In this document: positions 1,740 to 56,648 of the stretch, one piece after another
Numbering within the stretch: position 1 is the stretch's first letter
Layout of the letters: each line of letters begins with the position of its first letter
Assembly (NCBI GenBank): GCA_039028435.1
Contig: JBCCIC010000001.1
Span: 396,240-460,239, forward strand
Source: Actinomycetota bacterium
GTDB lineage: Bacteria; Actinomycetota; Acidimicrobiia; Acidimicrobiales; UBA10347
Length of the DNA: 64,000 bases
Direction: 5' to 3'
Position numbers and translations under genes: made by a program
The notes under the pieces: generated by a model
What the model saw: the letters and a program-made list of their open reading frames with translations, nothing else
Database searches by the model: none
What the model was told of the DNA's origin: nothing

Positions 1740-2312
1740 ATGCTCACGGACATCGCGCTCGCGTACGGGGTGGTGCTCGTTGCCGAACTCGGCGACAAGA
1801 CCCAACTCGTTGCGCTCACCGCCACGGGTCGTCACGGGGCCTGGCGGACCCTGGGCGCGCTGACCGCTGCTCTGGTCGTACTGCAGACGATGTCGGTCGT
1901 GATCGGGGCGAGCGTGGCGAGCTTCGTCCCCGATCGAACGGCAGGGCTGATCGCGGGCCTGCTGTTCATCGTCTTCGGTGTGTGGACGCTGCTCCAGCTT
2001 GACAAGGGCGGTGCTCAAGACGCACGACACGCTGCCGGAAGAGTCGACGCCGGTCTTCTGCGGGTCGCCGCGGTCTTCTTCCTTGCCGAACTCGGCGACA
2101 AGACCATGTTGGCGACCGCGAGCCTTGCGACGGACCGGTCTCCGGTCGGCGTGTGGGTCGGTTCGTTCGCGGCAATGGTCACGGCGACGGCGCTGGCGGT
2201 GTTTGCCGGCGCCGCACTGGCCCATCGACTGTCGACCCGGACGGTCGAGTTGTTCGGTGGGATCATCTTCCTGATCGTGGGCATCGCGACCACGATCGCC
2301 GCACTGCTCTAG
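1740..2312 (+). CDS. UPF0016/GDT1 (TMEM165) family cation (Mn2+/Ca2+) transporter
   Basis: 190-aa membrane protein with the two family-defining E-x-G-D-K-T motifs (AELGDKTQL and AELGDKTML) in duplicated halves. Confidence 0.85.
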   Translation: MLTDIALAYGVVLVAELGDKTQLVALTATGRHGAWRTLGALTAALVVLQTMSVVIGASVASFVPDRTAGLIAGLLFIVFGVWTLLQLDKGGAQDARHAAGRVDAGLLRVAAVFFLAELGDKTMLATASLATDRSPVGVWVGSFAAMVTATALAVFAGAALAHRLSTRTVELFGGIIFLIVGIATTIAALL

Positions 2313-7360: not shown

Positions 7361-8175
7361 GCGCCGACGCACCTCCGTTGCTGAATGGTCTTGAGGCATC
7401 GGGCATCGCCGCCGGATACACGACCGACGTGCTGCACGACGTCGACCTTGCCGCGACCGAGGGCAGGGTCACCGCCCTCGTGGGCCCCAACGGTTCCGGC
7501 AAGTCGACCCTGCTCAAGGCCTGCGCCAATCTCCTCGAACGATCGACCGGAAGCGTGACGATCCAAGGCCAGGACATCGCCGAGCTGTCGACGCGGCAAG
7601 TGGCGACCAAGCTTGCACTGCTCCCCCAGGGTCCGAGCACGCCCCCGTACCTGACGGTTCGCGACCTGGTCGAACAGGGGCGGTTCGCACATGTCGGACC
7701 CCTCGGCATGCTGCGACGCCAGGACCATGCGGCCGTCACCGAAGCGATCTCGCTCGTCGGGCTCGAGAGCTTCGCCAATCGCGACGTCGATGCCCTCTCC
7801 GGCGGTGAGCGCCAGCGAGCGTGGCTCGCACTCGCCCTGGCTCAGGAAACGCCCGTTCTGGCCCTCGACGAGCCGACTACGTTTCTCGACATCGGTCACC
7901 AGTGGGAAGTCCTCGAACTGGTCAGGTCGCTCAACGAGGAACGCAACCTCACCGTGCTCATGGTGCTCCACGACCTCAACCACGCCGCATCCTTCTCGGA
8001 CCAATTGGTCGTGCTCGAACAGGGTCGGGTCGTCGCCGCCGGCGATCCGTGGGACACGCTCACCACCGAACTTCTCCGCGAAGTGTTCGGCGTCGAGGCC
8101 TCGATCATCGCCGACCCCAAGACCGATCGCCCACTGATCGTGCCCCACGCCGCCGCACCCCGCGGGACCAGATGA
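7357..8175 (+). CDS. Iron-siderophore ABC importer ATPase (FepC/FhuC-like)
   Basis: GTG 7357 overlaps the upstream TGA (GTGA). Walker A GPNGSGKST, signature LSGGERQR, Walker B LALDEPTTFLD. The track ORF start at 7138 lies inside the permease gene and was rejected. Confidence 0.9.
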   Translation: MSADAPPLLNGLEASGIAAGYTTDVLHDVDLAATEGRVTALVGPNGSGKSTLLKACANLLERSTGSVTIQGQDIAELSTRQVATKLALLPQGPSTPPYLTVRDLVEQGRFAHVGPLGMLRRQDHAAVTEAISLVGLESFANRDVDALSGGERQRAWLALALAQETPVLALDEPTTFLDIGHQWEVLELVRSLNEERNLTVLMVLHDLNHAASFSDQLVVLEQGRVVAAGDPWDTLTTELLREVFGVEASIIADPKTDRPLIVPHAAAPRGTR

Positions 8176-15107: not shown

Positions 15108-16277
15108 CTACTCGGTCGGTTCCAGGTCGAAAATCGCGCCCAGATCATCGAGGATGGCGTGGGCCCCGAAGAAGCCGACCCCCGACATCCAGCGATCGTC
15201 GGACACCGCGTACACGTTGCCGGAGCTCACGGCGCCAAGGGTGTCCCAGAGCGGGCTGCCCAGCAGTTGTTCGACCCCGGCCTCGACGTCTTCATTGGGG
15301 AAGGTCGCATAGACGAGCACGTCGCCATCGGCGAGGTCCAGTTCCTCTTCACTGATGACCCGGATGAACTCGTCGGGGTCCTGTTGACTCGGCGGACGAG
15401 CGAGACCTGCGTCGCCGAGTACCACACCACTGAAGCTGTTCGGTTGGTAGAGCCGAATCACGTCGACGAACCGCACCACCGAGATCGTCGGCGAGTCGTA
15501 CTGCTCGTTGATCGCTGCGCCGACTGCGGCGGCGCGAGCCTCGTAGGCGACCAGGACCTCCTCTGCCAAGTCTTCTCGTCCGCTTGCGGCCGCGCCAAGA
15601 CGGATCGAGTCCTTCCAGCCGGCGCCCGCCGACTCGCTCATCACCGTGGGTGCGATCTGCGCGAGCTCGCCGGCGATGTTCTCGTGGCGGACCACGCTGG
15701 TCAAGATGAGATCCGGCTGTGCCGCGGCGATGAGCTCGAGATTCGGTGCGAACAGGTCGCCCATCCAGACGGCATCAGCCCCGAAGGTTTCCGCGGCCTC
15801 GCCGTAGAGCTCAGGCAGCGGCCCGTTCGGGTCCGAGAAGGTCGTGTACCCGACGACCTGGAGTTCGAGGGTAAAGGCGACGTCGAGCATGGACTGGTCG
15901 AGCACCACGACCCGCTGCGGCGCCACTGGGATCTCGACCGGTCCGAGCGCGGTTTCGACGGTTCGAGGAAAGACCGGCGGAACGGTTGGTTCCGGCGATG
16001 GCTCCGCGGTCGGCTCGGGGGCAGCGTCGATGTCGGGATCGGTGTCGGCTGCGGGATCGGTGTCGGCTGCGGGATCGGCGTCGCTAGCAGCCTCAGGTGC
16101 CGACGTCGGTGCCGGTGTCTCCGTCGGCGCCGGTTGCGAGTCACTGGCCGCTGAGGCCGTTTCGGCGCCGTCACCGGCATTGGCATCGGACCCGGCACAA
16201 CCGGTGGCGAACAGGAGCAGGAGCGAGAGCACCACTGCCCGGAATGCCCGGAATGCCGCGATGCGAGAGGAGGCCAT
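15108..16277 (-). CDS. Lipoprotein, iron-siderophore class III ABC substrate-binding protein
   Basis: Signal peptide plus lipobox (LFATGC), an acidic Pro/Ala/Asp linker containing a tandem repeat, and a PBP body (..GPVEIPVAPQRVVVLD..). Confidence 0.85.
   Translation of the reverse strand: MASSRIAAFRAFRAVVLSLLLLFATGCAGSDANAGDGAETASAASDSQPAPTETPAPTSAPEAASDADPAADTDPAADTDPDIDAAPEPTAEPSPEPTVPPVFPRTVETALGPVEIPVAPQRVVVLDQSMLDVAFTLELQVVGYTTFSDPNGPLPELYGEAAETFGADAVWMGDLFAPNLELIAAAQPDLILTSVVRHENIAGELAQIAPTVMSESAGAGWKDSIRLGAAASGREDLAEEVLVAYEARAAAVGAAINEQYDSPTISVVRFVDVIRLYQPNSFSGVVLGDAGLARPPSQQDPDEFIRVISEEELDLADGDVLVYATFPNEDVEAGVEQLLGSPLWDTLGAVSSGNVYAVSDDRWMSGVGFFGAHAILDDLGAIFDLEPTE
16035..16088. repeat. 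3 x 18-bp in-frame tandem repeat inside the binding-protein linker
   Basis: gggatcggtgtcggctgc occurs twice exactly, then a diverged third copy. It encodes DPAADT-DPAADT-DP on the minus strand. Confidence 0.9.
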
Positions 16278-16301: not shown

Positions 16302-16320
16302 TAAGGTTTCCCTAACATAA
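16302..16320. promoter_or_regulatory. DtxR/IdeR-type iron box candidate in a divergent promoter region
   Basis: TAAGGTTTCCCTAACATAA matches TTAGGTTAGCCTAACCTAA at 15/19 positions (hand count). It is an AT-rich island between the binding-protein gene (-) and the ABC operon (+). Confidence 0.55.
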
Positions 16321-16369: not shown

Positions 16370-18142
16370 ATGGCCACCACCGACGAGTCCGACGTCGACT
16401 CGAAACCGGAACCCGACCAGATCGGCCTCGGAGAACTCCTCGCTCCGGTCCGAAACCAACTCATCCTCGCCTGCGTCTTCCAGGCGATCGGCGCACTGGC
16501 CGGCATCGTGCCGTTCATCGCCGTGGCCGAGATCGGGCGGGAACTACTCGGCGATCGCGACTCCGACCGACTCTGGACCATCGTCATCATCGCTGCCGTC
16601 GCCCTGGCGATCCGTGTGGGTTGCTTCTTCGCCGCTGCGGGCATCACCCACTTCGCCGACAACGACTTCCAGCTCGCCATCCGGCGCCGCATCGCGGAGC
16701 ACCTCGGTCGACTGCCACTCGGCTGGTTCGACGACAACGATGCCGGCACCGTCAACAAGCTCATCGCCGACGACGTCTCAGCCATGCACCCGATCGTCGG
16801 CCACACCTTCATCGACATCACGAACACCGTCGTCACCGCCATCGCGTCGATCATCTACCTCTTCGTCATCGATTGGCGGATGGCACTGGTGGTGCTCATC
16901 CCCTTCGTCGCCGGCATCTTCCTCTACGCCAAGCAGATGTCGGGCTACGGCGAGAAGATGGAGCAGTACAACCAGTCGATGGCCGACGTGAACACGGCCA
17001 GCATCGAGTTCGTGCAGGGCATCGCCGTCGTCAAGACGTTCGGCCAGACCGGCCGGGCGCACAAGCGCTACAAGACGAGCACCGATTCGTTCATCCAGTC
17101 CTTCTGGGACTGGGTCAAGGGTCTGCTGAACATTGCCTCCCTGAGCGACATCGTGCTTTCCCCGCTGACCACGCTCACCCTCGTGCTCGGCGCGTCGGCG
17201 TGGTTCATCGATCGCGGCACCCTCGAGGTCGCCGACATCCTGGTGTTCCTCAGCCTCGGTCTTGCGCTCACCATGCCGATCCTGACCCTGGGGTTCGCGG
17301 GCAACGAGGTCCAACTGGCCAGTGCGGCGGCAGGCCGAATCGGTCGGGCGCTCGCCGAGAAGCCACTGCCCCAGCCCACCGACCCGCAGATTCCGCTCGA
17401 AGACGACCTGCGCCTCGAAGGCGTGACGTTCTCCTACGGTCCCGATGAGCCGGTCGTGCTCGACGATGTCAGCCTGGCGTTCGAGCCCGACACGGTCACG
17501 GCCATCGTCGGCGCGTCGGGTTCGGGCAAGACGACCCTGGGCCGACTGCTGTGTCGGTTCTGGGATCCGACGGGCGGATCGATTCGTCTCGGCGGTGTCG
17601 ACCTCCGCGACATCGAATCCGAGGAGCTCTACGCGCGGGTGGGATTCGTCTTCCAGAACGTGCAGCTCATTCGTGGCACGATCGCCGACAACATCCGGCT
17701 TGCCGATCCCGAGGCTCCGCAGTCGCAGGTCGAAGCCGCCGCCCAGGCCGCCCAGATTCACGACCGGGTCATGGAACTGCCCGACGGTTACGAATCGGTG
17801 ATCGGGGAGAACGTCTCGCTTTCGGGGGGCGAGCGGCAGCGCTTGTCGATCGCCCGGGCGCTCATCGCCAATCCGCCGATTCTCGTGCTCGACGAGGCGA
17901 CCGCATTCGCCGACCCGGAGTCGGAGGCCGCGGTCCAGGACGCACTGTCGACCCTCGTCGCCGGACGAACCCTGATCGTGATCGCTCATCGGCTCTCCAC
18001 GATCACGCAGGCCGACCAGATCGTCGTCCTCGACGAAGGCAGGGTGGTCGAGACCGGCACCCACGCCGACCTCCTCGATGCCGGCGGTACGTATCAGAAA
18101 CAGTGGGCCGCAGACGCCCGAGTCACCGCTGAGGTCGGATGA
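16370..18142 (+). CDS. Exporter-fold ABC half-transporter (IrtA/YbtP-like), canonical NBD
   Basis: TMD plus NBD with [28 protein letters not shown] and IAHRLST. Confidence 0.9.
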
Positions 18143-19875
18143 TGCTTCGCTCACTCGCCAAACTCGTCGCCGACCCCACGGCGTTCCGCTCCTCCGTCGC
18201 TGGCATGGTCGCAACCGCGATCCTCCAGGGCATCGGCTTCGTGCTCCTCGTGCCCGTGCTTCGTGCCCTCATCGAGGGTGACAACGGTCGCGCCGCCTGG
18301 TGGCTGCTCGCCATGGTTCTGGCGCTCGTGGTGTTCGGCGTCCTCCGCCACGTGAGCCAGATTCAGGCGTATCACACGGCGATCGACGGGGGCCGAGCCC
18401 TCTTCGGCCGGCTCGGCGACAAGGTCTCCACCCTGCCACTCGGATGGTTCGACAGCGACCGCGTCGGCTCACTCAGCCGGATCACCGGCCAGGGAGTCAT
18501 CGATGTCATGGGCGTGCCGGCCCACCTGCTTCGAGCCGTGGTCACCGCCGTCACGACCCCGGTCGTCGTGGCTGTGATCATGTTCGCCTTCGACTGGCGT
18601 CTCGCGCTCGCGATGGTGCTCGCCCTTCCCGTCGCGTGGGTGGTGCTGCGCTGGGCAAGCAACCGCACCCAACGCTCGGAGCATCGGACGCACCACGCGT
18701 CGGCCGAAGCGACCAGTCGCGTGGTGGAATTCGCGCAGACCCAGGCGGTGCTCCGCAGTTGCGGTCGGACGGTCGACGGCTTTGCGATGCTCGACGACGC
18801 ACTCGTGGAGCGACGCAATGCCGGACGCAAGCTGATGGTCAACGCCGTTCCCGGATTGATCGGCTTCAGTGCCGTCGTGCAAGCCGCATTCGTCGCCCTC
18901 CTGGTCGTCGGAACGACGATTGCGGTGGGCGGATCGGTCGACGTACCCGAGCTCGTCGCCGTGCTGATCCTCGCCGTTCGGTTCATCGAGCCGCTCATCT
19001 TGGCGTCGGACATCTCCGGCGCGATCAAGATCGCCGAGAACGCCATCGACCGGGCGGAGACCCTGCTGGAGACACCCGTCCTGCCCGAACCGGCCTCGTC
19101 GACTCGGCCGACCGACGCCTCGGTCACGTTCGACGACGTGAGCTTTGGGTACGGCGATGACATCGTGATCGACGAGGCGTCGTTCACGATCGCCGCCGGT
19201 TCGATGGTGGCCCTCGTGGGACCCTCGGGTTCGGGCAAGACGACGATCGCCCGCCTCATCGCGCGGTTCTGGGACACCGACGAAGGGACGGTCGCCATCG
19301 GCGGGGTCGACGTGCGTGACATGTCCACGACTGACCTGATGGAGCAGGTGTCGATCGTCTTTCAGGACAACTACCTGTTCGCGGGCACGATTGAGGAGAA
19401 CGTCCTGCTCGCGAGACCCGAGGCGTTGCGAGCGGACCTCGAGCGGGTGGCCGCGCTCACCCGGCTCGACGAAGTGATCGAACGACTTCCCGCCGGATGG
19501 GAGAGCCCGGTCGGCGACGGCGGAACCCGCCTTTCCGGCGGTGAACGCCAGCGGGTGACCTTGGCTCGCGCCCTACTCAAGGACGCCCCGGTCATCCTCC
19601 TCGACGAAGCCACCGCAGCGATCGATCCGGCGAACGAGCAGGTGATCCAGGCCGCCATCGACAGCCTCCGCGGCAAGCACACGCTGATCGTGATCGCCCA
19701 CCGGTTGTCGACGATCGCATCGGCCGACGAGATCCTGGTGCTCGACGACGGTCGGATCGCCGAACGCGGTGGGCACGAGGATCTCCTCGCAGCCGGTGGC
19801 CGGTACGCGTCGTTCTGGCATCAGCGCGATCGAGCCTCCGGCTGGCGACTCGAGCGCAGCGGCGCAATGCCGTGA
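18139..19875 (+). CDS. Exporter-fold ABC half-transporter (IrtB/YbtQ-like), canonical NBD
   Basis: ATGA overlap with the upstream gene. [28 protein letters not shown] and IAHRLST. Confidence 0.9.
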   Translation: MMLRSLAKLVADPTAFRSSVAGMVATAILQGIGFVLLVPVLRALIEGDNGRAAWWLLAMVLALVVFGVLRHVSQIQAYHTAIDGGRALFGRLGDKVSTLPLGWFDSDRVGSLSRITGQGVIDVMGVPAHLLRAVVTAVTTPVVVAVIMFAFDWRLALAMVLALPVAWVVLRWASNRTQRSEHRTHHASAEATSRVVEFAQTQAVLRSCGRTVDGFAMLDDALVERRNAGRKLMVNAVPGLIGFSAVVQAAFVALLVVGTTIAVGGSVDVPELVAVLILAVRFIEPLILASDISGAIKIAENAIDRAETLLETPVLPEPASSTRPTDASVTFDDVSFGYGDDIVIDEASFTIAAGSMVALVGPSGSGKTTIARLIARFWDTDEGTVAIGGVDVRDMSTTDLMEQVSIVFQDNYLFAGTIEENVLLARPEALRADLERVAALTRLDEVIERLPAGWESPVGDGGTRLSGGERQRVTLARALLKDAPVILLDEATAAIDPANEQVIQAAIDSLRGKHTLIVIAHRLSTIASADEILVLDDGRIAERGGHEDLLAAGGRYASFWHQRDRASGWRLERSGAMP

Positions 19876-20594
19876 GCGTCGCTCGAACGGTTCGCCAGTT
19901 CACGATCAAGAACCGGGCGACGGTGACCTCCGCCGAGCCGGTCGGCGATGGCCTGCTTCACGTCCGGGCGACGATGGCCCAGCCGAACGTTGCCTGGAAG
20001 CCGGGCCAAGCCGTCGCGCTCGTCGTCGATCCCGAGGGCAAGTCGATGAAGGACCGCTGGCGTCACTACACGGTCCGAGCCTGCGACCGCGAGGCCGGCA
20101 CGATCGACTTTCTGATGGCCCGCCACGACGCCTCGACACCCGGCGGTCGTTTCATCGACAACCTCGCAGCCGGACGCGAGTTCACCTTCATGGGTCCCGG
20201 GGGCTCTCCCGTCGTCGAGCACGGCGCCCGGGGCTACCTGTTCGCCGGTGATCGCACGAGTGTGGCGTCAATCTCCGCGATGCTCGATTCGCTCAGTGAG
20301 CGCACTCCTAACGTGCGGGCAACGGTGATCATGGCGACGCCGAACCCACGCGCGGCCGCGCTCCCCACCTCGGTTGAGCACGACGTCACCTGGGTGGCTG
20401 CGACCACGGCCGAGGAGATCGCGGCGAACGTGGTCGATGCGCTGCCGCCGACCATCCCGAGCGCGAGCCGCGCCTACGTCACCGGCGAGATGACCATGAT
20501 GCGGGACGTGCGGAGGGCACTCGGCGAACGTGGTCTCGGGCGCCGCCACATCGGCTGCCATGCCCACTGGACGCCTGGTCGACGGGGGATGTGA
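19872..20594 (+). CDS. Siderophore-interacting protein (SIP, short form)
   Basis: GTGA overlap with the upstream ABC gene. FNR-family FAD motif RHYTVR; C-terminus ..MTMMRDVRRALGERGLGRRHIGCHAHWTPG. Confidence 0.85.
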   Translation: MSVARTVRQFTIKNRATVTSAEPVGDGLLHVRATMAQPNVAWKPGQAVALVVDPEGKSMKDRWRHYTVRACDREAGTIDFLMARHDASTPGGRFIDNLAAGREFTFMGPGGSPVVEHGARGYLFAGDRTSVASISAMLDSLSERTPNVRATVIMATPNPRAAALPTSVEHDVTWVAATTAEEIAANVVDALPPTIPSASRAYVTGEMTMMRDVRRALGERGLGRRHIGCHAHWTPGRRGM

Positions 20595-22018: not shown

Positions 22019-22792
22019 TCAGGTCGCCGAAGGAGCTGGCCCGGCCAGGCGCCGCACGGCAAGCGCACCGAACCCGATGATCAGCACCGCGGCCCACAGG
22101 ATCGCCCAGAGCACCGGTCGCCCGAGATCGCCGCCGCGACCCAACCGGTCGAGTACCCGCACGAACGCGGCCACCGGCGAGGCGCGCACGATCGGCTGCG
22201 CCCAGTCCGGGTACGCCTCGATCGGCACCATCGCTGCGGACATGAACATGAGCACCAGATAGAGGGCCCCTAGCGGGGCACTCAGCGCTTCGGTGGTCTT
22301 GGTCATCGTGGCGAACGCCAGTCCCGGCATCGTCATGGCGATGCCGATGAGGACGGCCACGGGAAAGATCAGCAGTGTCCGCAGTGCACCGCCCTCGAAG
22401 CGAAAGCCGAGCGCGTACCCGACGCTGCCGAGCACCAGCAGTGCCGCAGCGGCGCGCACGACCTCGGCGGCGACGACACCGACGATCGTCGTCGAGGGTC
22501 GAACCGGCATGGTGCGGATTCGGGCCATGAAGCCGGTCTGGATGTCCTTCTGCAATCCGACGGCGGCACCGACGGATCCGAACATCAAGCCGGAGACGAC
22601 CAGCCCAGGAACGAGGCGTTGGGCGTAGTTGTCGCCCTCGAACGCCTCGACCGACGTTGCGAAGGCGGCAAAGATGGCGAACAACAGCAGCAGCGGGAAG
22701 ATGACCGTGTTCACGATCGCCTCGGGCGACCGGACGAATCGCCGCACGGCGCGACCACTGAACGTCGCAGCCGAGATGTGCCAGGGCGTCAT
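22019..22792 (-). CDS. ABC-2 type exporter permease
   Basis: ATG 22792 overlaps the upstream stop (ATGA). About 6 TM segments; N-terminus RRFVRSPEAIVNTVIFPLLLL is typical of ABC-2/DrrB-like permeases. Confidence 0.8.
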   Translation of the reverse strand: MTPWHISAATFSGRAVRRFVRSPEAIVNTVIFPLLLLFAIFAAFATSVEAFEGDNYAQRLVPGLVVSGLMFGSVGAAVGLQKDIQTGFMARIRTMPVRPSTTIVGVVAAEVVRAAAALLVLGSVGYALGFRFEGGALRTLLIFPVAVLIGIAMTMPGLAFATMTKTTEALSAPLGALYLVLMFMSAAMVPIEAYPDWAQPIVRASPVAAFVRVLDRLGRGGDLGRPVLWAILWAAVLIIGFGALAVRRLAGPAPSAT

Positions 22793-23553
22793 CGCGACAC
22801 CGCCCGATCGGTGAGCCTCACGCTCATCGCGGTGAAGACCAAGACCAGCACGACAGACCACATGACCGTGCGAGTCACCGTGGTCGAAATGTCGCCATCG
22901 CCGGCGAGTGCCCGCAGCGCGTCAATTGCCGAGGTCACCGGTTGCCACTCGACGAATGGTTGCAACCAACCGGGAAAGTCGTCGACCGGGGCGAACCCGC
23001 TCGACAACATGATCAGTGGGAGATACGGGATCGATGCCAACGAAGCGGCCGAGTCCCTCGTCGGGGCGACCAGGCCGATGAGCCCCATGCCGAGCGACAT
23101 CGTGACGGCAAACGCAACCGCCACCAAGACATAGCCGGCCGCCGCGGCTGCGCCGGCCGTGAAACGCATGCCGGTGGCGACACCGACACCGACGACGACC
23201 GCGATCGACAAAAGCGACCGGGCCGCGTCGGCGAAGGTACGCGCCAGGAGGGGCGACGCTCGATGAATCGGAAGGGACCGCAGGCGACTGAGCATCCCGG
23301 TCGTGCGGTCGTCGGCGACGTAGTAGGCCGCCGACATACCTGCGAACATCATCGCCTGAATCACGACGGTCGACGGCAGCAGCTGGGCGTAGTCGAACCC
23401 CTGTGCCGCCATCACCCGGCGCATCACGAGGTTGAACAACCCGAGGAACAGCAACGGGAATAGCACCGCGCTCATGATCGAGGCCGGGTTCCGTGCCGAT
23501 CGGACGATCGCCCGCCGGGCCAGGATCGATGTGTCGGCGACGAGTGCGCTCAC
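22789..23553 (-). CDS. ABC-2 type exporter permease
   Basis: Paralogous to the downstream permease (RSARNPASIMSAVLFPLLFL). Overlaps the ATPase gene stop. Confidence 0.8.
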   Translation of the reverse strand: MSALVADTSILARRAIVRSARNPASIMSAVLFPLLFLGLFNLVMRRVMAAQGFDYAQLLPSTVVIQAMMFAGMSAAYYVADDRTTGMLSRLRSLPIHRASPLLARTFADAARSLLSIAVVVGVGVATGMRFTAGAAAAAGYVLVAVAFAVTMSLGMGLIGLVAPTRDSAASLASIPYLPLIMLSSGFAPVDDFPGWLQPFVEWQPVTSAIDALRALAGDGDISTTVTRTVMWSVVLVLVFTAMSVRLTDRAVSR

Positions 23554-24548
23554 GATGCGCCCACCGACTCGGTGTCCGTCGCTTCGATGGGCGACGAGTC
23601 CTCGGTGAGGGCGAAGAACACGTCGTCGAGCGTCGGTTGGCGCAGGGAGACGTCGGCGACGGCAACACCAGCCTCGCCGAGCGCGGTCACGATCGACACC
23701 AACTCATCGGCGCCGGCATTGGCGACGGTGACTGAGCCCGTTTCGGCATCGACCGTGGTCTCGCCGAACGCCTGGAGCCGCTCGGCGACCGACGGGAGCT
23801 GGGCGGCGTCGACGAGGGTCACGGCACACGAGGTTGCACCCAGCTGACCCTTGAGTTCAGCCGGCGTGCCGGAGGCCACGATCCGACCATGGTTCAACAC
23901 GACGATGTCGTCGGCGAGTTGGTCGGCCTCTTCGAGGTATTGCGTCGTGAGGATCACGGTCAAGCCGCCATCACGCAGCTCGCGCACCGCCTCCCACACC
24001 TCGGCCCGGCTGCGGGGGTCGAGGCCGGTCGTCGGCTCATCGAGGAAGAGCACCGCCGGGGGAACCACGAGACTCGCCGCGATGTCGAGCCGCCGTCGCA
24101 TGCCGCCCGAGTACGTTCCCGAACGGCGCTCGCCGGCTTCGGCCAGCGAGAACTGGTCGAGCAGCAGGTCGGCGCGAGCCGCTGCTTCGCCCCGACCGAG
24201 ACCCCGCAGCCGGGCGAACATCTCGAGGTTCTCACGACCGGTGAGCACCTCGTCTACGGCAGCGAACTGGCCGGTCAGGGCGATCCGCTCGCGCACGGCA
24301 TCGGGCTCATCGACCACGCTGTGACCGGCGATCGTGGCCGTTCCGGAATCCGGCTGAACGAGCGTTGCCAGGATCTCCACCGTTGTCGTCTTGCCGGCAC
24401 CATTCGGCCCGAGCAGACCGAGCACGGTTCCCGGTCGTGCCTCGAACGTGACACCCGCGAGCGCGTGCACCTCGCCGAACGACTTGGTGAGGGCCTCGAC
24501 CCGCACCCCGCCGCCGGCCGAGTTCTGGGCAACATCTGGCTCGTTCAT
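23550..24548 (-). CDS. ABC exporter ATPase (DrrA/daunorubicin-resistance-like)
   Basis: GLLGPNGAGKTTT, YSGGMRRRLDIA and LFLDEPTTGLD, with the ~100-aa C-terminal domain typical of DrrA-type ATPases. Confidence 0.9.
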   Translation of the reverse strand: MNEPDVAQNSAGGGVRVEALTKSFGEVHALAGVTFEARPGTVLGLLGPNGAGKTTTVEILATLVQPDSGTATIAGHSVVDEPDAVRERIALTGQFAAVDEVLTGRENLEMFARLRGLGRGEAAARADLLLDQFSLAEAGERRSGTYSGGMRRRLDIAASLVVPPAVLFLDEPTTGLDPRSRAEVWEAVRELRDGGLTVILTTQYLEEADQLADDIVVLNHGRIVASGTPAELKGQLGATSCAVTLVDAAQLPSVAERLQAFGETTVDAETGSVTVANAGADELVSIVTALGEAGVAVADVSLRQPTLDDVFFALTEDSSPIEATDTESVGAS

Positions 24549-24600: not shown

Positions 24601-24621
24601 TGATAGGCACGCCTAACTTCG
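24601..24621 (+). promoter_or_regulatory. TGATAGGCACGCCTAAC box (DtxR/IdeR-like) in a divergent promoter region
   Basis: 24603-24621 matches the DtxR consensus at 12/19, including GCCTAAC. It shares the 12-mer TGATAGGYAYGC with 28404 and 57902 (reverse complement). Confidence 0.45.
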
Positions 24622-24653: not shown

Positions 24654-27203
24654 GTGTTCCATATCCATCCCTGGCTGGCGTCATTGCTCGCCGTCCTGCT
24701 CTCCATCGCACTCCTCGCCACCGCATGTGGCGGGAGCGACGACACCGGCTCCAGGAGTGACTCGACCTCCGCGAGCGAGACGTCCACATCCTCCAGCGAA
24801 TCGTCGGATGCGTCCAGCGCTTCCGGCTCCGGCAGCGCGTCCGCGAGCGATGAGTCCGAAGAACCCGATGCTGATGAAAGCGCTGGCGACCGGGCGTCGT
24901 CATCCGGAACCGGCGAGACGGTCGTCGTGGCCGACGTGCTCGGCGACGTCGAGGTGACCGTCACGTCCGACGGCGTGTACGCCCTCGACGAGTTTGCCGG
25001 CATCGCCTTGCTCACGCTCGGCGTCACCCCGATCGCCGTCGACGCACTGTTCGAGGACGACGAACTCCGGCCCGTGCCGGAGTCGCTCGACATCCCGATC
25101 AACCCGACGAACAACCTCGAGGCGCTCGCCGCCGCCATGCCCGAGCTGATCCTCGGCATCGGCCATCCGAACTTCCTAGAGGTCCGCGAGCAGCACAACG
25201 CCATCGCATCGACCGTCACACCCGATTTCACCGACACCTGGCAGAACCAGACGCTGGTCTTCGCGACCGCCACCGGAACCGAGGAACGTGCGGAGACCGT
25301 CATCACCACGGTCGAGGCCCGCACCGCCGAGCTGCGCAGTCGGATCGACGGCGCCGGGCTCAGCGGTGCACGGATCTCGATCATCCAAACCTTCGGCCCG
25401 GAGTTCTGGGCGTATGGGCCGTCGACCCTCGTCGGCACCTTGGTGGAGGATCTCGGATTCACGCGCTCCGAACTCCAGTCCGGCGGTGGAGACTTCGGCT
25501 TCATTCCCGTCGCCGAGGAGTTCCTCACCGAGGAGACGACCGCCGAGATCGTGATCGGGATGACAGGAGATGTCGGCGACTCGCTGACCGTCTTCGACAG
25601 CCCGGTCGTCGACCCCGGCGATGCATTCGCCGCCGAAGTCGTCCGCACCTGGTCGGCCAACAATGCGCTGGCCGCATGGATCATCCTGGACGACCTCGAG
25701 TCGATCCTCTTCGGTGACGGCACCACGACCGACCGAGAGGAGATCCTCGACGCCTGGGACGACCTGCTTGGGGCCATCGACGCCGTCGAGTCGGGTGACG
25801 TCGTCATCGAAGAGGACACGCGCTTCCCGCGCACGATCGAACACTCGCTCGGCGAAACCACGCTGGACGAGGAGCCGAGGACGATCGTTCCGCTCTTCGG
25901 CGAGATTCTCGGAGAACAGCTGATCGCACTCGGCATCACGCCGGCCGGCGCACTCCCCTACCAGAGCCCGTTGCCGGCCACCGGGGAGACCTACGGACTC
26001 GAAGCCCTCTACGACGTCACGCCAATCGGCACCGGCTTCGAGCCGAGCCTCGAGCTGATCGCCGCACTCGAGCCGGACCTGATCATCAGCGATGACCAGT
26101 TCTTCGCCGCCGTGTACGAGCCGCTGAGCGGCATCGCCCCGACCTATGCGCTCGACATCTTCTCCGACGACTGGCAGGCGAACTTCCGACTCGTCGCCGA
26201 GGTCGTCGGGCGGGAAGACCGAGCCGAGGAGGTCATCGCCGAATACGAAGCGCGGGTGGATTCGCTGCGCCCTGACGTCGAAGCGTTCTTCGACGGCAAG
26301 TCGGTCGCGGTGATGCAGGAGACCTTGGCCAACGAGCAGTCCGCCGGCGGTGAGGCTGGTGCCCGGATCTACGGTGCAGATACGAACCCCGGACGCTTCC
26401 TGGCCGATCTCGGCGTGGACGTGTGGGAGCCCGCCGATCCCGGTGGTTCGGAGATCGCCCCGTCGACGTACGAGATCAGTACCGAGGCGATCACGACCGT
26501 CGACGCCGACGCCGTCCTGTACCTGATCGAGCCGGAGCGGTTCGTCGACCCCGAAGCCGTCGAGGCGAGCGCCATCTGGCAGGCCACGCCCGCCGTCGGT
26601 TCCGGCCAGTTGTACTTCCTCGACTTCGGCACCCAGGTGCGACTCGGCGGACCCCTCCACAAGTTCATCGCCATGGACGCGGTCGAGGCCCTGATCACCG
26701 GCGGTGAGACCGGCGGAGTCGGCGACGTACCCGATCCGGTGCTGCCCGAGCCGACGATCACGACGGTCGTCGACGTCGCCGGCGAGGAAGGCTCCACGCT
26801 GATTCCGCAGTTCTCGGCCTTCTCGCCGGACTTCGCGGCAGCGGTCGGTGGTGAGGGTCCGGTGACCGCATTCCTTCCGAGCGACGACGGCCTCTTCGCC
26901 GTGCAGGGAAGCAACGCAGAATTTGCGGCTGCCCTCCAAGAGGACTTCGAGCTACTCGACGAGGTGTTGCGCTACCACGCGATCGCAGGCGTCGCCCTCA
27001 CGGCCGAAGAGGTCATCGCCGCCGGCGAGCTCGAAACCTTGTTGGGCGAGTCGATCACCGTCGAGGTCGTCGGAGACGAGGTCGTGCTGAACGGCGGCCA
27101 AGCCCGGGTCTCCGCCGCCGACCTGGTCGCCGACAACGGCATCGCCCACGTGATCGACAGCGTGCTCATTCCGCCATCGCGAGCTGCCGAATTCGGCGGC
27201 TGA
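24654..27203 (+). CDS. Lipoprotein with two tandem class III siderophore-binding domains and a C-terminal fasciclin (FAS1) domain
   Basis: GTG start after GAGGGGG. Lipobox LLATAC, then a Ser/Asp-rich linker. Two PBP-like units at about 24910-25740 and about 25821-26700. FAS1 motifs at about 26761-27180: TAFLPSDDGLFA, LRYHAIAG, ADNGIAHVIDSVLIP. Confidence 0.8.
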   Translation: MFHIHPWLASLLAVLLSIALLATACGGSDDTGSRSDSTSASETSTSSSESSDASSASGSGSASASDESEEPDADESAGDRASSSGTGETVVVADVLGDVEVTVTSDGVYALDEFAGIALLTLGVTPIAVDALFEDDELRPVPESLDIPINPTNNLEALAAAMPELILGIGHPNFLEVREQHNAIASTVTPDFTDTWQNQTLVFATATGTEERAETVITTVEARTAELRSRIDGAGLSGARISIIQTFGPEFWAYGPSTLVGTLVEDLGFTRSELQSGGGDFGFIPVAEEFLTEETTAEIVIGMTGDVGDSLTVFDSPVVDPGDAFAAEVVRTWSANNALAAWIILDDLESILFGDGTTTDREEILDAWDDLLGAIDAVESGDVVIEEDTRFPRTIEHSLGETTLDEEPRTIVPLFGEILGEQLIALGITPAGALPYQSPLPATGETYGLEALYDVTPIGTGFEPSLELIAALEPDLIISDDQFFAAVYEPLSGIAPTYALDIFSDDWQANFRLVAEVVGREDRAEEVIAEYEARVDSLRPDVEAFFDGKSVAVMQETLANEQSAGGEAGARIYGADTNPGRFLADLGVDVWEPADPGGSEIAPSTYEISTEAITTVDADAVLYLIEPERFVDPEAVEASAIWQATPAVGSGQLYFLDFGTQVRLGGPLHKFIAMDAVEALITGGETGGVGDVPDPVLPEPTITTVVDVAGEEGSTLIPQFSAFSPDFAAAVGGEGPVTAFLPSDDGLFAVQGSNAEFAAALQEDFELLDEVLRYHAIAGVALTAEEVIAAGELETLLGESITVEVVGDEVVLNGGQARVSAADLVADNGIAHVIDSVLIPPSRAAEFGG

Positions 27204-27242: not shown

Positions 27243-28406
27243 GTGACTGCAGGTGACACCCAACCGACGCAATCCCTCCCGGTGCGCTTCGGTTGGGTGT
27301 CGCTGTTCCAGGACCTCGGCTCGAAGATGGTGGTGCCGATGGTCCCGCTCTTCCTGGCGACCACCTTGAGTGCATCACCGCTCGTCATCGGGCTCGTAGA
27401 TGGGATCGCCGCCGCCACCGTCGCCGCATCGGCACCGTTCGCAGGTCGGCTCACGAGCCGCTTCGGACCGCTGCCGCTCACCCGCGCCGGGTACGGCCTG
27501 TCGTCGATCGCCAAACCTGCGCTCGCGCTGGCAACCGGGTGGGGTGTCGTCCTGGCCGTGCGTGTGGTCGACCGGCTGGGCAAGGGTGTCCGCGACGCGC
27601 CCCGGGACATGCTGCTCTCAGCGGCCGGCAAGGATGACGAACGCGGCCGACGGTTCGGCGTACAACAGGCCATGGACAAGTTCGGGGGCTTCCTCGGACC
27701 ACTCGCCGGGCTCGGCCTCTATCACCTGTTCGACGGGTCCTTCCGCTGGGTCTTCGTCGCGGCGTTCGTGCCCTGTGTGATCAGCGTGATCGTGCTCTGG
27801 CAGATCCGCGCTGACGATGGCGCATCCCATCCGGTCGACGCGCCGGGCGAGCCTCTCAGCACGACCACTGCGCAGCGACGGCTGCTGTTCGTACTCGCCG
27901 GCAGCACCCTCTTCACCGTGCCGACCGGACTGTTGCTGCTCCGCGGTCTCGAACTCGACGCCGGCATCAGCGCACTGCTCGGCGCATTCGCCGTCCATCG
28001 CTTGGCGACCGCGGTCTGCGCCGTGCCCGCCGGCCACCTGACCGATCGACATGGACCAGCCGTCGCGGTCAGGCTCGGGCTGACGTGCCTGGTCGCCGCG
28101 TTGGCGATCGCCACGACCGACGCCGGCTGGGGAATATGGCTCGCGCTCGGTCTGGTCGGTGTCGCCGATGCCCTCTTGCGAACCGGCGCCAAGACGTGGC
28201 TCGCTGCCCTCGGCCCGGTCGCGGCCCGGGTCGGCGCGTTCGGGTCCCTTGCGTCGGTCAACGCAGCCGCAGCGCTCGGCGCCGGCGTGATGTTCGGCAC
28301 CCTGTGGGCGGACAGCGGACGCACGTCCCTGTTCGTCGGCTGCATCGGTGTGGCCATCGCCGGTTTTGCGTCGCTCGGAATCTCGGCTCACGAGCGAGCG
28401 GACTGA
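27243..28406 (+). CDS. MFS transporter
   Basis: 387-aa polytopic protein with an MFS-type loop (VVDRLGKGVRDAPRD). Confidence 0.8.
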   Translation: MTAGDTQPTQSLPVRFGWVSLFQDLGSKMVVPMVPLFLATTLSASPLVIGLVDGIAAATVAASAPFAGRLTSRFGPLPLTRAGYGLSSIAKPALALATGWGVVLAVRVVDRLGKGVRDAPRDMLLSAAGKDDERGRRFGVQQAMDKFGGFLGPLAGLGLYHLFDGSFRWVFVAAFVPCVISVIVLWQIRADDGASHPVDAPGEPLSTTTAQRRLLFVLAGSTLFTVPTGLLLLRGLELDAGISALLGAFAVHRLATAVCAVPAGHLTDRHGPAVAVRLGLTCLVAALAIATTDAGWGIWLALGLVGVADALLRTGAKTWLAALGPVAARVGAFGSLASVNAAAALGAGVMFGTLWADSGRTSLFVGCIGVAIAGFASLGISAHERAD

Positions 28407-28445
28407 TAGGTATGCCACCTATCGTGCATAAGGCATGGCTATACC
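28404..28445 (+). promoter_or_regulatory. Two TAGG/TAAGG boxes directly upstream of and overlapping the binding-protein start
   Basis: TGATAGGTATGCCACCTATC contains the perfect inverted repeat GATAGG-N7-CCTATC. CATAAGGCATGGCTATACC overlaps ATG 28435. Confidence 0.4.
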
Positions 28446-29631
28446 TGTCCGCCGAATCGCCTCTCTACTGGCTGCCCTTGCGCTGACCGTCAGCGCATGT
28501 GGCAGCGACGAACCACTGGGCCAAACGCCCAGCGAAGCACCCGCGGCTGCATCGAGTTCGGCGATGTCCGACCTTGGCCAGGACGAAGCGGAGGAAGACA
28601 CCGATCGGGACAACCCCTCGACCGGCGACGAGTCGAGCTCCGCATCGCCATCGACGGCGTCTGCCACGACGACCGCAACACCGGAACCACCTGCCGAGGA
28701 TGCGCCGGAAGAAGACGAAGGAGACGCAGACTCGACCGATGCCGACACTGCTGAACCCGAGTCCTCGACTCGAGTCGTTGAGCACGCACTCGGCACGAGC
28801 GAGATTCCGACACGACCCGAACGCATCGTCGTGATGGACCCCGGCACGATCCTGCCGACGTTGCTCACGTTCGACTTGCCGATCGTCGCCGCACCCTTGC
28901 CGGCCGAGCCGTTCCCGACCGTGCTGGTCGACGAAGACGACCTGGCCATGATCGCATCGGTCGGTTTGTCCGACGTCTCACTCGAACTCGTCGCCGCGGC
29001 ACAACCCGACCTGATCGTCGGGTTCGACGCCGGCTTGACCGACACGTACGACCAGCTGACCCAGATCGCCCCGACCGTCGCCGTCGGTCTCGACCTCAAC
29101 GACTGGCGGGCAACCGCCGAGGAGATCGGTCGGGTCGTCGGCATCGACGAGGAGATGGCCGAAGCCCTGGCGGAGTACGACGCTCGAGTCGCACAGTTGC
29201 GGGCCGATTTGGGTCCGGCGATCGACACCGAGGTCTCGGTGGTGCGTGCGCTCGGTCAGCTCATCCGCCTGCACACCCGATTCCACTTCGCCGGGCAAGT
29301 ACTCGACGACGTCGGCCTCGCCCGTCCGGCCACGCAGCAAACAGACGACCCCGAAACCCGCCTCATCCAGATCTCACTCGAAGATCTCGGGCAGGCCGAC
29401 GGTGACATCCTGTTCGTGTTCGGCGCCGGCTCACTCGGCAGCCTCGGTGGCGACGAGGTTGACCTCACGATCCAGGCCATCACCGAGCACCCGCTGTTCC
29501 CGACACTGCGCGTGGCCCAGAACGACGCCGTGGTGGTCGTCGACCCGCTTGGTTGGCAACAGGGCGGTCTCCCCGCCGCGAATCTGATCCTCGACGACCT
29601 CGAACGTGCGCTCGTCGGCTCCAGCTCCTGA
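28435..29631 (+). CDS. Lipoprotein, iron-siderophore class III ABC substrate-binding protein
   Basis: Lipobox TVSAC, a ~100-aa acidic Ser/Asp/Glu linker, and a PBP body (VVEHALGTSEIPTRPERIVVMD). Confidence 0.85.
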   Translation: MAIPVRRIASLLAALALTVSACGSDEPLGQTPSEAPAAASSSAMSDLGQDEAEEDTDRDNPSTGDESSSASPSTASATTTATPEPPAEDAPEEDEGDADSTDADTAEPESSTRVVEHALGTSEIPTRPERIVVMDPGTILPTLLTFDLPIVAAPLPAEPFPTVLVDEDDLAMIASVGLSDVSLELVAAAQPDLIVGFDAGLTDTYDQLTQIAPTVAVGLDLNDWRATAEEIGRVVGIDEEMAEALAEYDARVAQLRADLGPAIDTEVSVVRALGQLIRLHTRFHFAGQVLDDVGLARPATQQTDDPETRLIQISLEDLGQADGDILFVFGAGSLGSLGGDEVDLTIQAITEHPLFPTLRVAQNDAVVVVDPLGWQQGGLPAANLILDDLERALVGSSS

Positions 29632-56639: not shown

Positions 56640-56648
56640 GTCCGCTGA

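What the first reader, a model, noticed from the sequence alone, without database searches (positions are those of the whole stretch)
24654..27203. 849-aa lipoprotein with two tandem siderophore-binding domains plus a fasciclin domain
After the lipobox and a Ser/Asp linker, two complete class-III PBP-like units follow each other (about 24910-25740 and 25821-26700). Each starts with the usual strand motif (..VLGDVEVTVTSDGVYALD.. and ..IEHSLGETTLDEEPRTIVPL..). The C-terminus is a clear FAS1 domain (TAFLPSDDGLFA, LRYHAIAGVAL, ADNGIAHVIDSVLIP). I do not recognise this PBP-PBP-FAS1 architecture. Tandem binding domains are known for amino-acid ABC systems, but I know of none among siderophore receptors. 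FAS1 is an adhesion or envelope-association module, as in the mycobacterial MPB70/83 type. The protein could be a wall-anchored dual-specificity or high-avidity siderophore trap that feeds the neighbouring transporters.
Basis: partly seen in the sequence, partly recalled or inferred. Interest (0 to 1): 0.65.

Follow-up and report, generated by a model that had tools for sequence, protein, structure and literature searches.

The report
Fused double siderophore-binding lipoprotein with FAS1
This is a real surface lipoprotein in an Acidimicrobiales-like actinobacterium, made by fusing two different iron-siderophore-binding proteins that relatives encode as separate genes, with a fasciclin tail; it is an unusual build of an ordinary iron-uptake part.

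Summary
ORF 24654-27203 (+) encodes an 849-aa lipoprotein: lipobox Cys25, an acidic disordered tether, two complete class III binding domains (Peripla_BP_2, 34 and 93 bits), and a C-terminal FAS1 domain (76 bits).

Ten close relatives (63-71% identity, Acidimicrobiales-type MAGs) are 517-567 aa with one PBP plus FAS1. The N unit instead matches standalone 363-378-aa lipoproteins (56-62% identity) that end exactly where it ends. Two MAGs carry both as separate genes on different contigs. The ORF is therefore a clean in-frame fusion that removed the second gene's signal peptide and tether. An independent assembly is 100% identical across both junctions, and both units keep their family-conserved residues.

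Both parent genes recur in clusters with IrtA/IrtB-type ABC importers, SIP reductases, MFS and FecCD genes. The window is an iron-uptake island with no siderophore synthetase.

The claim that no tandem siderophore receptors exist fails at database level: 35 of the 150 nearest cluster representatives have two or three PBP units, and PBP-FAS1 and PBPx3-FAS1 also occur. None is characterised. The exact PBP-PBP-FAS1 order was found only here. The role of FAS1 is unknown.

Verdict: new variant of a known kind, moderate interest.

The parts
24654..24728 (+). Signal peptide and lipobox (aa 1-25, L-A-T-A-C25)
   Evidence: Helix at aa 6-24 in the full-length model. Cys25 is invariant in 11/11 aligned family members. 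The sequence fits the lipobox rule.
24729..24914 (+). Acidic Ser/Ala/Asp/Glu-rich disordered tether (aa 26-87)
   Evidence: pLDDT 25-35 with no secondary structure. Comparable low-complexity tethers occur in all PBP-FAS1 relatives and all standalone N-type PBPs.
24915..25778 (+). N unit: complete class III (Peripla_BP_2) binding domain, counterpart of a standalone lipoprotein family
   Evidence: Pfam 34.4 bits alone. AF2 with its own alignment gives pLDDT 75 and pTM 0.82, with two lobes and a backbone helix. Foldseek aligns it full-length to YfiY, FhuD2, HtsA and CeuE, TM up to 0.77. It is 56-62% identical to 363-378-aa standalone proteins that end at the same point. It keeps 88% of family-conserved residues.
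25779..25814 (+). Fusion connector (aa 376-387, VESGDVVIEEDT), unique to this protein
   Evidence: pLDDT below 50 at aa 374-387. It is absent from both parent families: standalone N-type proteins stop just before it, and PBP-FAS1 relatives have their signal peptide and tether there. The DNA is 100% identical in the Logan assembly.
25815..26708 (+). C unit: complete class III binding domain of the PBP-FAS1 family
   Evidence: Pfam 93.1 bits. pLDDT 80-95. Foldseek TMt 0.79-0.80 to YfiY and HtsA. It is 66-78% identical to relatives. It keeps 92% of conserved residues.
26709..26753 (+). Flexible linker between C unit and FAS1 (aa 686-700)
   Evidence: pLDDT below 50 at aa 686-700. The stretch is variable in relatives.
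26754..27203 (+). FAS1 (fasciclin) domain and stop codon
   Evidence: Pfam 76.2 bits. pLDDT 85-95. PDB sequence hits to TGFBIp, periostin, CupS, Fdp, AstaP and MPT70. The YH motif (R-Y-H-A) is seen directly in the sequence.
27243..28406 (+). MFS transporter, 40 nt downstream, probably co-transcribed
   Evidence: MFS_1 107 bits. 45-46% identical homologues sit in the same module in L005 and L008. No terminator-like site lies between the genes.
28435..29631 (+). Third PBP gene (398 aa), 29 nt after the MFS gene
   Evidence: Peripla_BP_2 57 bits. A homologue with 56% identity lies next to the PBP-FAS1 gene in L008.
22019..24548 (-). Divergent DrrAB-like ABC-2 exporter operon (ATPase plus two permeases)
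   Evidence: Pfam and NCBIfam drrA, 344 bits against a cut-off of 312. Homologues also neighbour the PBP-FAS1 gene (L001, L021) or the N-type PBP operon (L007).
16370..20594 (+). IrtA/IrtB-type heterodimeric ABC importer (590 + 578 aa) and separate SIP ferric-siderophore reductase (240 aa): candidate partner
   Evidence: ABC_membrane plus ABC_tran, and SIP domains. Best solved relative is IrtA at E 2.6e-128, with YbtP at 3.6e-101. Homologues of 74-75% identity are divergent from the N-type PBP in L008, and homologues of 58-60% precede it in an operon in L007.

Best explanation
The ORF encodes a lipid-anchored cell-surface receptor for ferric siderophores. It was made by an in-frame fusion of two genes that relatives keep separate. 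Parent 1 is a ~370-aa N-type class III binding lipoprotein, which contributed the signal peptide, lipobox, tether and first binding domain. Parent 2 is a ~520-aa PBP-FAS1 lipoprotein typical of this Acidimicrobiales-like clade, which contributed the second binding domain and the FAS1 tail but lost its own signal peptide and tether. SHOWN: the architecture, the completeness of both folds, the separate-gene state in relatives, retention of conserved residues in both units, and the recurrent clustering of both parents with IrtAB-type ABC importers, SIP reductases, MFS and FecCD genes. INFERRED: each unit binds its own ferric siderophore, because the units are only ~35% identical and the C family has 5 invariant Arg/Lys in the domain against 1 in the N family. 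INFERRED: the long tether lets the chain reach out from the membrane, loaded domains dock on importers of the island (an IrtAB-type pair and/or a FecCD system elsewhere), and iron is released by the SIP reductases. INFERRED: the siderophores are probably made by other organisms, since the window has no synthetase. The FAS1 tail recurs on at least three different PBP types. It is most likely a protein- or envelope-interaction module, but its partner is unknown.
For: Architecture and folds. Fusion origin: ten relatives of 517-567 aa have one PBP plus FAS1, and the query alone has the ~290-aa insert. The N unit is 56-62% identical to standalone 363-378-aa proteins that end where it ends. GCA_039196935.1 and GCA_039201605.1 carry both parents as separate genes on different contigs. 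The 62% identity of the N unit to P0013 matches other presumed orthologues between these genomes: SIP 61%, DrrA 61%. Not an artefact: there is no internal signal-peptide remnant, and the Logan contig is 100% identical over 3,670 nt. Both units look functional: 88% and 92% of family-conserved residues are kept, inside the range of standalone members. Iron context: the window has 5 PBP units, 3 IrtAB-type pairs, 3 SIP genes and FecCD x2. ABC590's best solved relative is IrtA. L008 holds the ABC pair, SIP, MFS, N-type PBP, a PBP-FAS1 gene and a PBP398-type gene within 10 kb, and L007 has an ABC-ABC-N-PBP operon. All 50 listed structural neighbours of the C-unit model are iron-compound (almost all siderophore) binders. 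Precedent for a PBP serving IrtAB: mycobacterial FecB co-immunoprecipitates with IrtB (PMC10553834).
Against: No ligand, localisation or partner has been measured. The fused form was seen in a single MAG only, and the two assemblies may derive from the same reads. There is no FecCD permease in the gene's own operon, and the nearest FecCD pair (5193-7360) has its own PBP. IrtAB-type importers are generally regarded as not needing a binding protein. The neighbourhood of PBP-FAS1 genes varies, and several loci show no iron genes within the flanks. Mycobacterial FecB also has a non-transport role in envelope biogenesis (PMC13041763, listed). The N unit scores only 34 bits on Pfam, and its model has low-confidence loops. 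The full-length model gives no confident inter-domain geometry (pTM 0.43).
Confidence: 0.6

Rival explanations
1. Assembly or annotation artefact: two separate genes (N-type PBP and PBP-FAS1) were joined by a chimeric contig or a sequencing error in this MAG.
For: Every relative found encodes the two halves separately. The fused protein is a singleton cluster from one MAG. Low-complexity Ser/Ala-coding tethers could in principle mislead assemblers.
Against: The junction (AIDAVESGDVVIEEDTRFPRTIEHSLG) is in frame. It lies outside any low-complexity tether. It removes exactly the second gene's signal peptide, lipobox and tether, so a simple read-through of adjacent genes would leave these inside the protein. 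A second assembler (Logan, SRR22824298) gives 100% identical DNA over 3,670 nt covering both junctions. GC3 is uniform.
Confidence: 0.07
2. A PBP-fold scaffold without a transport role: one or both units and the FAS1 tail act in envelope organisation or as a docking platform, as recently reported for mycobacterial FecB with Rv3035, rather than delivering siderophores.
For: FecB, a class III PBP and a structural neighbour of the C unit, forms a complex that supports arabinofuranosyltransferase activity (PMC13041763 and PMC12802301, listed). FAS1 domains are interaction modules (PMC6032426). There is no FecCD permease in the operon. Several PBP-FAS1 loci lack iron genes nearby.
Against: SIP reductases, IrtAB-type pairs and other iron PBPs surround both parents in many loci. 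All 50 listed structural neighbours of the C-unit model are iron-compound (almost all siderophore) binders. Both units conserve many aromatic and basic residues typical of ligand clefts.
Confidence: 0.13
3. Same ligand, higher avidity: the two units bind the same siderophore, and the fusion simply doubles local receptor concentration for one transporter.
For: Tandem PBP-PBP proteins are common (32 of 150). In P0014 and P0015 both units match the N-type profile better than the C-type profile, which suggests duplications that may keep specificity. The best structural hit for both units is the same protein, YfiY.
Against: The N and C units belong to separately conserved families. They are 35% identical over only 136 aa. 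They differ in conserved basic residues (5 invariant Arg/Lys against 1). Their genomic partners also differ: N-type sits with the IrtAB-type pair, while C-type often sits with SIP plus FecCD.
Confidence: 0.12
4. The ligands are not siderophores but haem, cobalamin or another metal chelate.
For: Class III PBPs include haem and B12 binders. The haem-binding MhuP (7fhm) is rank 10 for the N unit, and the same protein deposited as Rv0265c (4pm4) is rank 9. No NCBIfam model reaches its cut-off.
Against: The top sequence and structure matches are siderophore binders, with no BtuF, IsdE, ShuT or TroA among the 50 listed C-unit hits. SIP (siderophore-interacting) reductases and an IrtA-like importer are the conserved neighbours.
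Confidence: 0.08

Closest known systems
Gram-positive lipoprotein siderophore receptors of the class III (cluster A-II) family: YfiY (3TNY), HtsA, SirA, FhuD2, FeuA, PiaA
   Same: Lipobox anchor. Two-lobed fold with a single backbone helix. Best sequence and structure matches for both units. Iron-uptake gene context.
   Different: Those proteins have one binding domain of ~300 aa and no extra module. This protein has two different binding domains in series plus FAS1, and a ~60-aa acidic tether. No solved structure spans more than one of its domains.
Uncharacterised database proteins with (Peripla_BP_2)n and optional FAS1: PBP-FAS1 of Acidimicrobiales MAGs (P0002-P0011), PBP-PBP (for example Thermobaculum terrenum WP_012875946.1), PBPx3-FAS1 (P0056)
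   Same: The same building blocks and the same lipoprotein format. The C unit and FAS1 are 63-71% identical to P0002-P0011.
   Different: The exact order N-type PBP, C-type PBP, FAS1 was found only in this protein. None of these proteins has been studied experimentally as far as the searchable literature shows.
Tandem substrate-binding domains of amino-acid ABC importers (GlnPQ type; from established knowledge, not tested here)
   Same: Two binding domains in one chain joined by a short linker (~12 aa here). This could give two specificities that compete for one translocator.
   Different: GlnPQ domains are class II (cluster F) and are fused to the permease. Here the domains are class III and are lipid-anchored as a separate protein.
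Mycobacterial FecB with IrtAB
   Same: An actinobacterial class III PBP lipoprotein without an adjacent FecCD permease, proposed to dock on an IrtAB-type importer (PMC10553834). FecB is a structural neighbour. ABC590's best solved relative is IrtA.
   Different: FecB is a single domain without FAS1. In IrtA the SIP-like reductase domain is fused to the transporter, whereas here SIP is a separate gene.
Bacterial FAS1 proteins MPT70/MPT83 (mycobacteria), CupS (cyanobacterial NDH-1 subunit), Fdp, AstaP
   Same: A single FAS1 domain. MPT83 is also a lipoprotein. Sequence matches are E 2.8e-5 to MPT70, 6.9e-10 to CupS and 1e-5 to AstaP.
   Different: In those proteins FAS1 is the whole protein or docks on a respiratory complex. 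Here it is the distal end of a binding-protein chain.

Membership tests
Class III / cluster A-II periplasmic binding proteins (Pfam Peripla_BP_2, PF01497) | Each unit scores above the Pfam gathering threshold on its own | tested here: met
   N unit 34.4 bits and C unit 93.1 bits against a cut-off of 27.5.
Class III / cluster A-II periplasmic binding proteins (Pfam Peripla_BP_2, PF01497) | Two alpha/beta lobes joined by one long rigid helix, superposable over the full length on solved members | tested here: met
   N unit: helix at model residues 130-153, pTM 0.82, TM 0.68/0.75 to 3TNY over 286 columns. C unit: helix at aa 521-546, pLDDT 80-95, TMt 0.79-0.80 to 3TNY and 3EIX.
Class III / cluster A-II periplasmic binding proteins (Pfam Peripla_BP_2, PF01497) | Binds a ferric siderophore (or other chelate) in the inter-lobe cleft | not testable with these tools
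   Only indirect evidence: siderophore binders as nearest structures and retention of conserved residues.
Class III / cluster A-II periplasmic binding proteins (Pfam Peripla_BP_2, PF01497) | Cognate FecCD-type (type II) permease and ATPase encoded alongside | tested here: inconclusive
   None in the gene's own operon. FecCD x2 at 5193-7360 has its own PBP. Relatives L012 and L019 have FecCD x2 plus an ATPase downstream of PBP-FAS1, but L007 and L008 link the N-type PBP to an IrtAB-type pair.
Fasciclin (FAS1, PF02469) | Pfam score above threshold and the conserved YH motif with flanking H1/H2 regions | tested here: met
   76.2 bits against a cut-off of 22. LRYHAI and NGIAHVIDSVLIP are in the sequence. 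PDB sequence hits to TGFBIp at E 1.6e-21. pLDDT 85-95.
Fasciclin (FAS1, PF02469) | Mediates adhesion or interaction at the cell surface | not testable with these tools
   No partner could be identified. The literature gives no role for FAS1 fused to binding proteins.
Bacterial lipoproteins | Signal peptide ending in a lipobox with an invariant Cys | tested here: met
   LLATAC25 follows a hydrophobic helix at aa 6-24. Cys25 is invariant in 11/11 sequences. One caveat: the n-region lacks Lys/Arg.
Tandem-SBD ABC importers of the GlnPQ type | Class II (cluster F) binding domains fused to the transmembrane domain | tested here: not met
   The domains are class III. The protein has no transmembrane domain beyond the signal peptide. 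It may work in a similar way but is not a member.
IrtAB/YbtPQ-type siderophore import module (as partner system) | Heterodimeric exporter-fold ABC half-transporters closest to IrtA/IrtB, with a SIP reductase | tested here: met
   ABC590's best PDB hit is IrtA at E 2.6e-128, with YbtP at 3.6e-101. A SIP gene lies directly downstream. Whether this importer uses the 849-aa protein is not testable here.

The most novel reading that the evidence does not exclude
The chain of two different binding domains plus FAS1 is a dedicated receptor for IrtAB-type (exporter-fold, type IV) ABC importers, which would show that this class can depend on binding proteins. In this reading FAS1 is the docking or retention element: it either binds the transporter or envelope, or holds the acyl tail of amphiphilic marine siderophores, by analogy with the carotenoid-binding FAS1 protein AstaP. 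The repeated, independent joining of PBPs into 2- and 3-unit chains (35 of the 150 nearest clusters) would then mark an unrecognised multi-receptor strategy for scavenging mixed foreign siderophores.
Probability: 0.2. Interest if true: 0.7.

Novelty: new variant of a known kind. Interest (0 to 1): 0.4.

Why it matters
Binding-protein classifications describe tandem binding domains only for amino-acid-type systems. This locus, and the many unstudied PBP-PBP(-PBP)(-FAS1) lipoproteins found around it, show that siderophore receptors are also built as multi-domain chains.

The fusion acts as a Rosetta-stone link between two receptor families and one iron-uptake module built around an IrtAB-type importer and a separate SIP reductase. 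That gives a concrete way to test whether exporter-fold siderophore importers use binding proteins, a question raised by mycobacterial FecB and IrtAB.

It also assigns a testable context to bacterial FAS1 domains, whose function outside mycobacterial antigens is largely unknown. Ecologically, five binding units, three importer pairs and three reductases with no synthetase in the window point to an aquatic actinobacterium that lives on siderophores made by other organisms.

Tried and rejected
1. Recent tandem duplication of one PBP. Rejected: the units share 35% identity over only 136 aa.
2. The 380-aa PBP next to the PBP-FAS1 gene in L001 as the source of the N unit. Rejected: 27% identity, and it is closer to the window's PBP398 (36%). 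The true counterparts are P0013 and P0163-P0168.
3. Simple stop-codon read-through of adjacent genes. Rejected: no internal signal peptide or tether remains.
4. L012 and L021 as further fusions, because their tblastn spans were long. Rejected: they hold separate ORFs.
5. A canonical IdeR/DtxR box upstream of the gene. None within 3 mismatches. The palindrome TAGGCACGCCTA occurs once exactly, plus one 1-mismatch site, and is not informative.
6. One combined alignment for AF2 with depth on both halves. MAFFT always placed N-type homologues on the C unit, even after trimming or reweighting, so I ran two separate jobs.
7. An AFDB search for the architecture in UniProt. The library was unavailable.
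8. Literature searches for Peripla_BP_2 plus fasciclin, tandem class III binding domains, and Acidimicrobiia siderophore uptake. Nothing relevant.
9. An indexed search with FAS1 alone. It returned only four proteins, three standalone FAS1 proteins of 199-242 aa and one 131-aa fragment, so it gave little on architecture breadth.
10. Ligand-type assignment from NCBIfam. All hits are far below their cut-offs.
Full report

Yes. The ORF at 24654..27203 on the + strand starts with GTG and encodes 849 aa. Its third-position GC is 0.86, as in the other genes of this 67% GC window. A GAGGGGG motif lies about 6 nt upstream of the start.

Pfam finds Peripla_BP_2 in two stretches plus Fasciclin. Scanned as separate pieces, the N unit scores 34.4 bits (E 2e-8), the C unit 93.1 bits and the tail 76.2 bits. 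All three exceed the curated cut-offs of 27.5, 27.5 and 22. The exact protein is already at NCBI as 'MAG: ABC transporter substrate-binding protein [Actinomycetota bacterium]', from an 850-kb contig.

**2. Anatomy**

| Residues | Feature | Evidence |
|---|---|---|
| 6-24, Cys25 | Signal-peptide helix, lipobox LATAC25 |; Cys25 invariant in relatives |
| 26-87 | Ser/Ala/Asp/Glu-rich disordered tether | pLDDT ~25-35 |
| ~88-375 | N unit | See below |
| 376-387 | Low-confidence connector | |
| 388-685 | C unit | pLDDT 80-95 |
| 686-700 | Flexible linker | |
| 701-849 | FAS1 | pLDDT 85-95 |

The N unit had no alignment depth in the full-length run, so I modelled it separately with its own homologues. 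That gave pLDDT 75 and pTM 0.82, with two alpha/beta lobes joined by one long helix. It superposes over 285-300 columns on YfiY, FhuD2, HtsA, CeuE and other siderophore-binding proteins, with TM up to 0.77. The C unit does the same, with TMt 0.79-0.80.

Both units are therefore complete class III folds. The full-length pTM of 0.43 means no fixed packing between domains is predicted, so they look like beads on a string. No solved structure covers more than one of the domains.

**3. Where it came from**

The ten closest relatives are 63-71% identical, all from Actinomycetota MAGs, one of them labelled Acidimicrobiales. They are 517-567 aa and align only to the lipobox and tether, then to the C unit and FAS1. 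The query alone carries a ~290-aa insert between the tether and the conserved FPRTIEHSLG start of the C unit.

The two units are only 35% identical over 136 aa, so this is not a recent duplication.

A full HMMER scan of 1.84 billion cluster representatives with the N unit found standalone lipoproteins of 363-378 aa at 56-62% identity. Their C-termini coincide with the end of the N unit.

Two MAGs, GCA_039196935.1 and GCA_039201605.1, contain both a standalone N-type PBP and a PBP-FAS1 gene on different contigs. The 62% identity of the N unit to P0013 is the same as for other presumed orthologues between these genomes: SIP 61% and DrrA 61%.

The query is therefore a fusion of a whole N-type gene, a 12-aa connector and the mature PBP-FAS1. 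The second gene's signal peptide, lipobox and tether were deleted.

**4. Real fusion or artefact?**

- The junction is in frame, lies outside low-complexity sequence and leaves no internal signal peptide.
- A Logan assembly of run SRR22824298 is 100% identical over 3,670 nt covering the whole gene. I cannot tell whether the reads are independent of those behind the MAG.
- The N unit keeps 88% of residues conserved among standalone N-type proteins, where family members range 69-97%.
- The C unit keeps 92% (family range 82-99%), and FAS1 keeps 92%.

I put the artefact reading at about 7%.

**5. Context**

The first 30 kb of the window is an iron-uptake island:

- A fused ABC half-transporter at 29-1723.
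- PBP, FecCD, FecCD at 3967-7360, followed by coding sequence with a Walker A motif.
- A fused ABC pair at ~7.8-11.8 kb, followed by a SIP gene.
- A PBP at 15108-16277 (-), divergent from an ABC pair at 16370-19875 that is followed by SIP at 19872-20594.
- An MFS gene, then a DrrAB-like ABC-2 operon at 22019-24548 (-).
- The 849-aa gene, then MFS (27243-28406) and another PBP (28435-29631) with gaps of 40 and 29 nt and no terminator-like site.

ABC590's best solved relatives are IrtA (E 2.6e-128) and then, after generic exporters, YbtP. No NRPS or NIS synthetase was found in the annotated window. A further SIP gene sits beside a multicopper oxidase at 55-58 kb.

In relatives:

- **L008** has an ABC590/578 pair (74-75%), SIP (61%), MFS (45%), N-type PBP (62%), a PBP398-type gene (56%) and a PBP-FAS1 gene, all within 10 kb.
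- **L007** has the N-type PBP as the third gene after the ABC pair.
- **L010, L012 and L019** have a SIP gene just upstream of PBP-FAS1. L012 and L019 also have FecCD x2 plus an ATPase downstream.

The fusion thus joins two receptors that belong to the same recurring iron module.

**6. How unusual is the architecture?**

Among the 150 cluster representatives nearest the N unit:

| Architecture | Count |
|---|---|
| Single PBP | 112 |
| PBP-PBP | 32 |
| PBPx3 | 2 |
| PBP-FAS1 | 2 |
| PBPx3-FAS1 | 1 |
| Fragment with no domain called | 1 |

Pfam spot checks agree, and most of these proteins have lipoboxes. One PBP-PBP protein is from cultured Thermobaculum terrenum.

FAS1 is attached to at least three PBP types: the C type, the N type (P0020, P0021) and a third type in L008 (30% identity to the C unit with a 66% identical FAS1). 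It also occurs as standalone ~200-240-aa proteins.

The exact order N-type PBP, C-type PBP, FAS1 was found only in the query. I found no paper describing any of these architectures.

**7. Mechanism**

*Shown:* a lipid-anchored chain of two different, intact siderophore-type binding domains and a FAS1 domain, encoded in an iron-uptake module.

*Inferred:* each unit binds its own ferric siderophore. The supporting points are:

- The two families are conserved separately.
- The C family has five invariant Arg/Lys in the domain (R393, R534, R571, R663, K670), while the N family has one (R271).
- The structural neighbours lean differently: HtsA and SirA for the C unit, PiaA and FhuD2 for the N unit. 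This is a weak hint of anionic versus neutral ligands.

The loaded domains would dock on membrane importers, and the SIP reductases would release the iron. The partner could be the IrtAB-type pair. Genomic linkage of the N-type PBP supports this, and FecB co-immunoprecipitating with IrtB is a precedent (PMC10553834). A FecCD system is also possible, given the linkage of the C type in L012 and L019.

The role of FAS1 is unknown. Docking to a membrane complex (as with CupS), envelope association, or binding of a hydrophobic ligand (as with AstaP) are all compatible with the matches.

**8. Verdict**

This is a new variant of a known kind: a fused, two-receptor version of a clade-specific PBP-FAS1 lipoprotein.

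Interest is moderate at 0.4. It is not a new principle. It does give a natural handle on two open questions: whether exporter-fold siderophore importers use binding proteins, and what bacterial FAS1 domains do. It also points to a sizeable, unstudied class of multi-domain siderophore receptors.

Noticed in passing
window 16302-16320: TAAGGTTTCCCTAACATAA matches the IdeR/DtxR consensus TTAGGTTAGGCTAACCTAA with 5 mismatches. It is the only site in the window with 6 or fewer mismatches. It lies in the 92-nt divergent promoter between the PBP gene 15108-16277 (-) and the IrtAB-type pair starting at 16370. It is a likely iron-repressor box for that operon. No comparable box lies upstream of the 849-aa gene.
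   Followed up: partly
window 24604-24615: Palindrome TAGGC-AC-GCCTA in the divergent region between the DrrAB-like operon and the 849-aa gene. It occurs once exactly, with one 1-mismatch site at 2406 (0.34 expected by chance). Its meaning is unknown.
   Followed up: partly
window 7361-7820 (and ORF 7821-9935): The apparent 461-nt gap after the second FecCD gene contains coding sequence with a Walker A motif (GPNGSGKST), which suggests a FecE-like ATPase. The mechanically called 704-aa ORF 7821-9935 has an unusually low GC3 (0.72) and an ABC_tran match starting at profile position 28. Gene boundaries or the reading frame here need re-examination, and a frameshift is possible.
   Followed up: no
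window 1-30000: Very dense iron-uptake island: five PBP units in four genes, three exporter-fold ABC pairs (one cut by the window edge), two SIP reductases here plus a third at 56.6 kb, FecCD x2 and two MFS genes. No NRPS or NIS siderophore synthetase appears among the genes annotated across the 64-kb window. This suggests reliance on foreign siderophores.
   Followed up: partly
window 55161-57800 (-): A multicopper oxidase (492 aa) lies directly downstream of a 383-aa SIP-type reductase. This may be a separate iron redox pair.
   Followed up: no
L008 2730-4301; P0020, P0021, P0056: FAS1 has been shuffled between PBP types. L008 has a FAS1 66% identical to the query's on a PBP only 30% identical to the C unit. 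P0020 and P0021 carry FAS1 on N-type PBPs. P0056 is PBPx3-FAS1.
   Followed up: partly
L001/L002 11675-12091: A DUF4149 (TMEM205-like) membrane protein gene sits between the PBP-FAS1 gene and another PBP gene in the closest relative. This small membrane protein could be a partner of these lipoproteins. I did not look for a counterpart in the window.
   Followed up: no
window 1740-2312; L005 11166-11744: A GDT1-family divalent cation/proton antiporter gene lies next to iron-uptake genes both in the window and beside the standalone N-type PBP in L005. This is a recurrent neighbour of unknown relevance.
   Followed up: no
L003 17242-18057: A bacteriorhodopsin-family gene lies 5.5 kb from the PBP-FAS1 gene in the Acidimicrobiales MAG. 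This fits an aquatic photoheterotrophic lifestyle for this clade.
   Followed up: no
window 24654-24680: The signal peptide's n-region (MFHIHPW) has no Lys or Arg, unlike relatives (for example MKSGRL, MTGRLL). No earlier in-frame start exists. Export competence is assumed, not shown.
   Followed up: no
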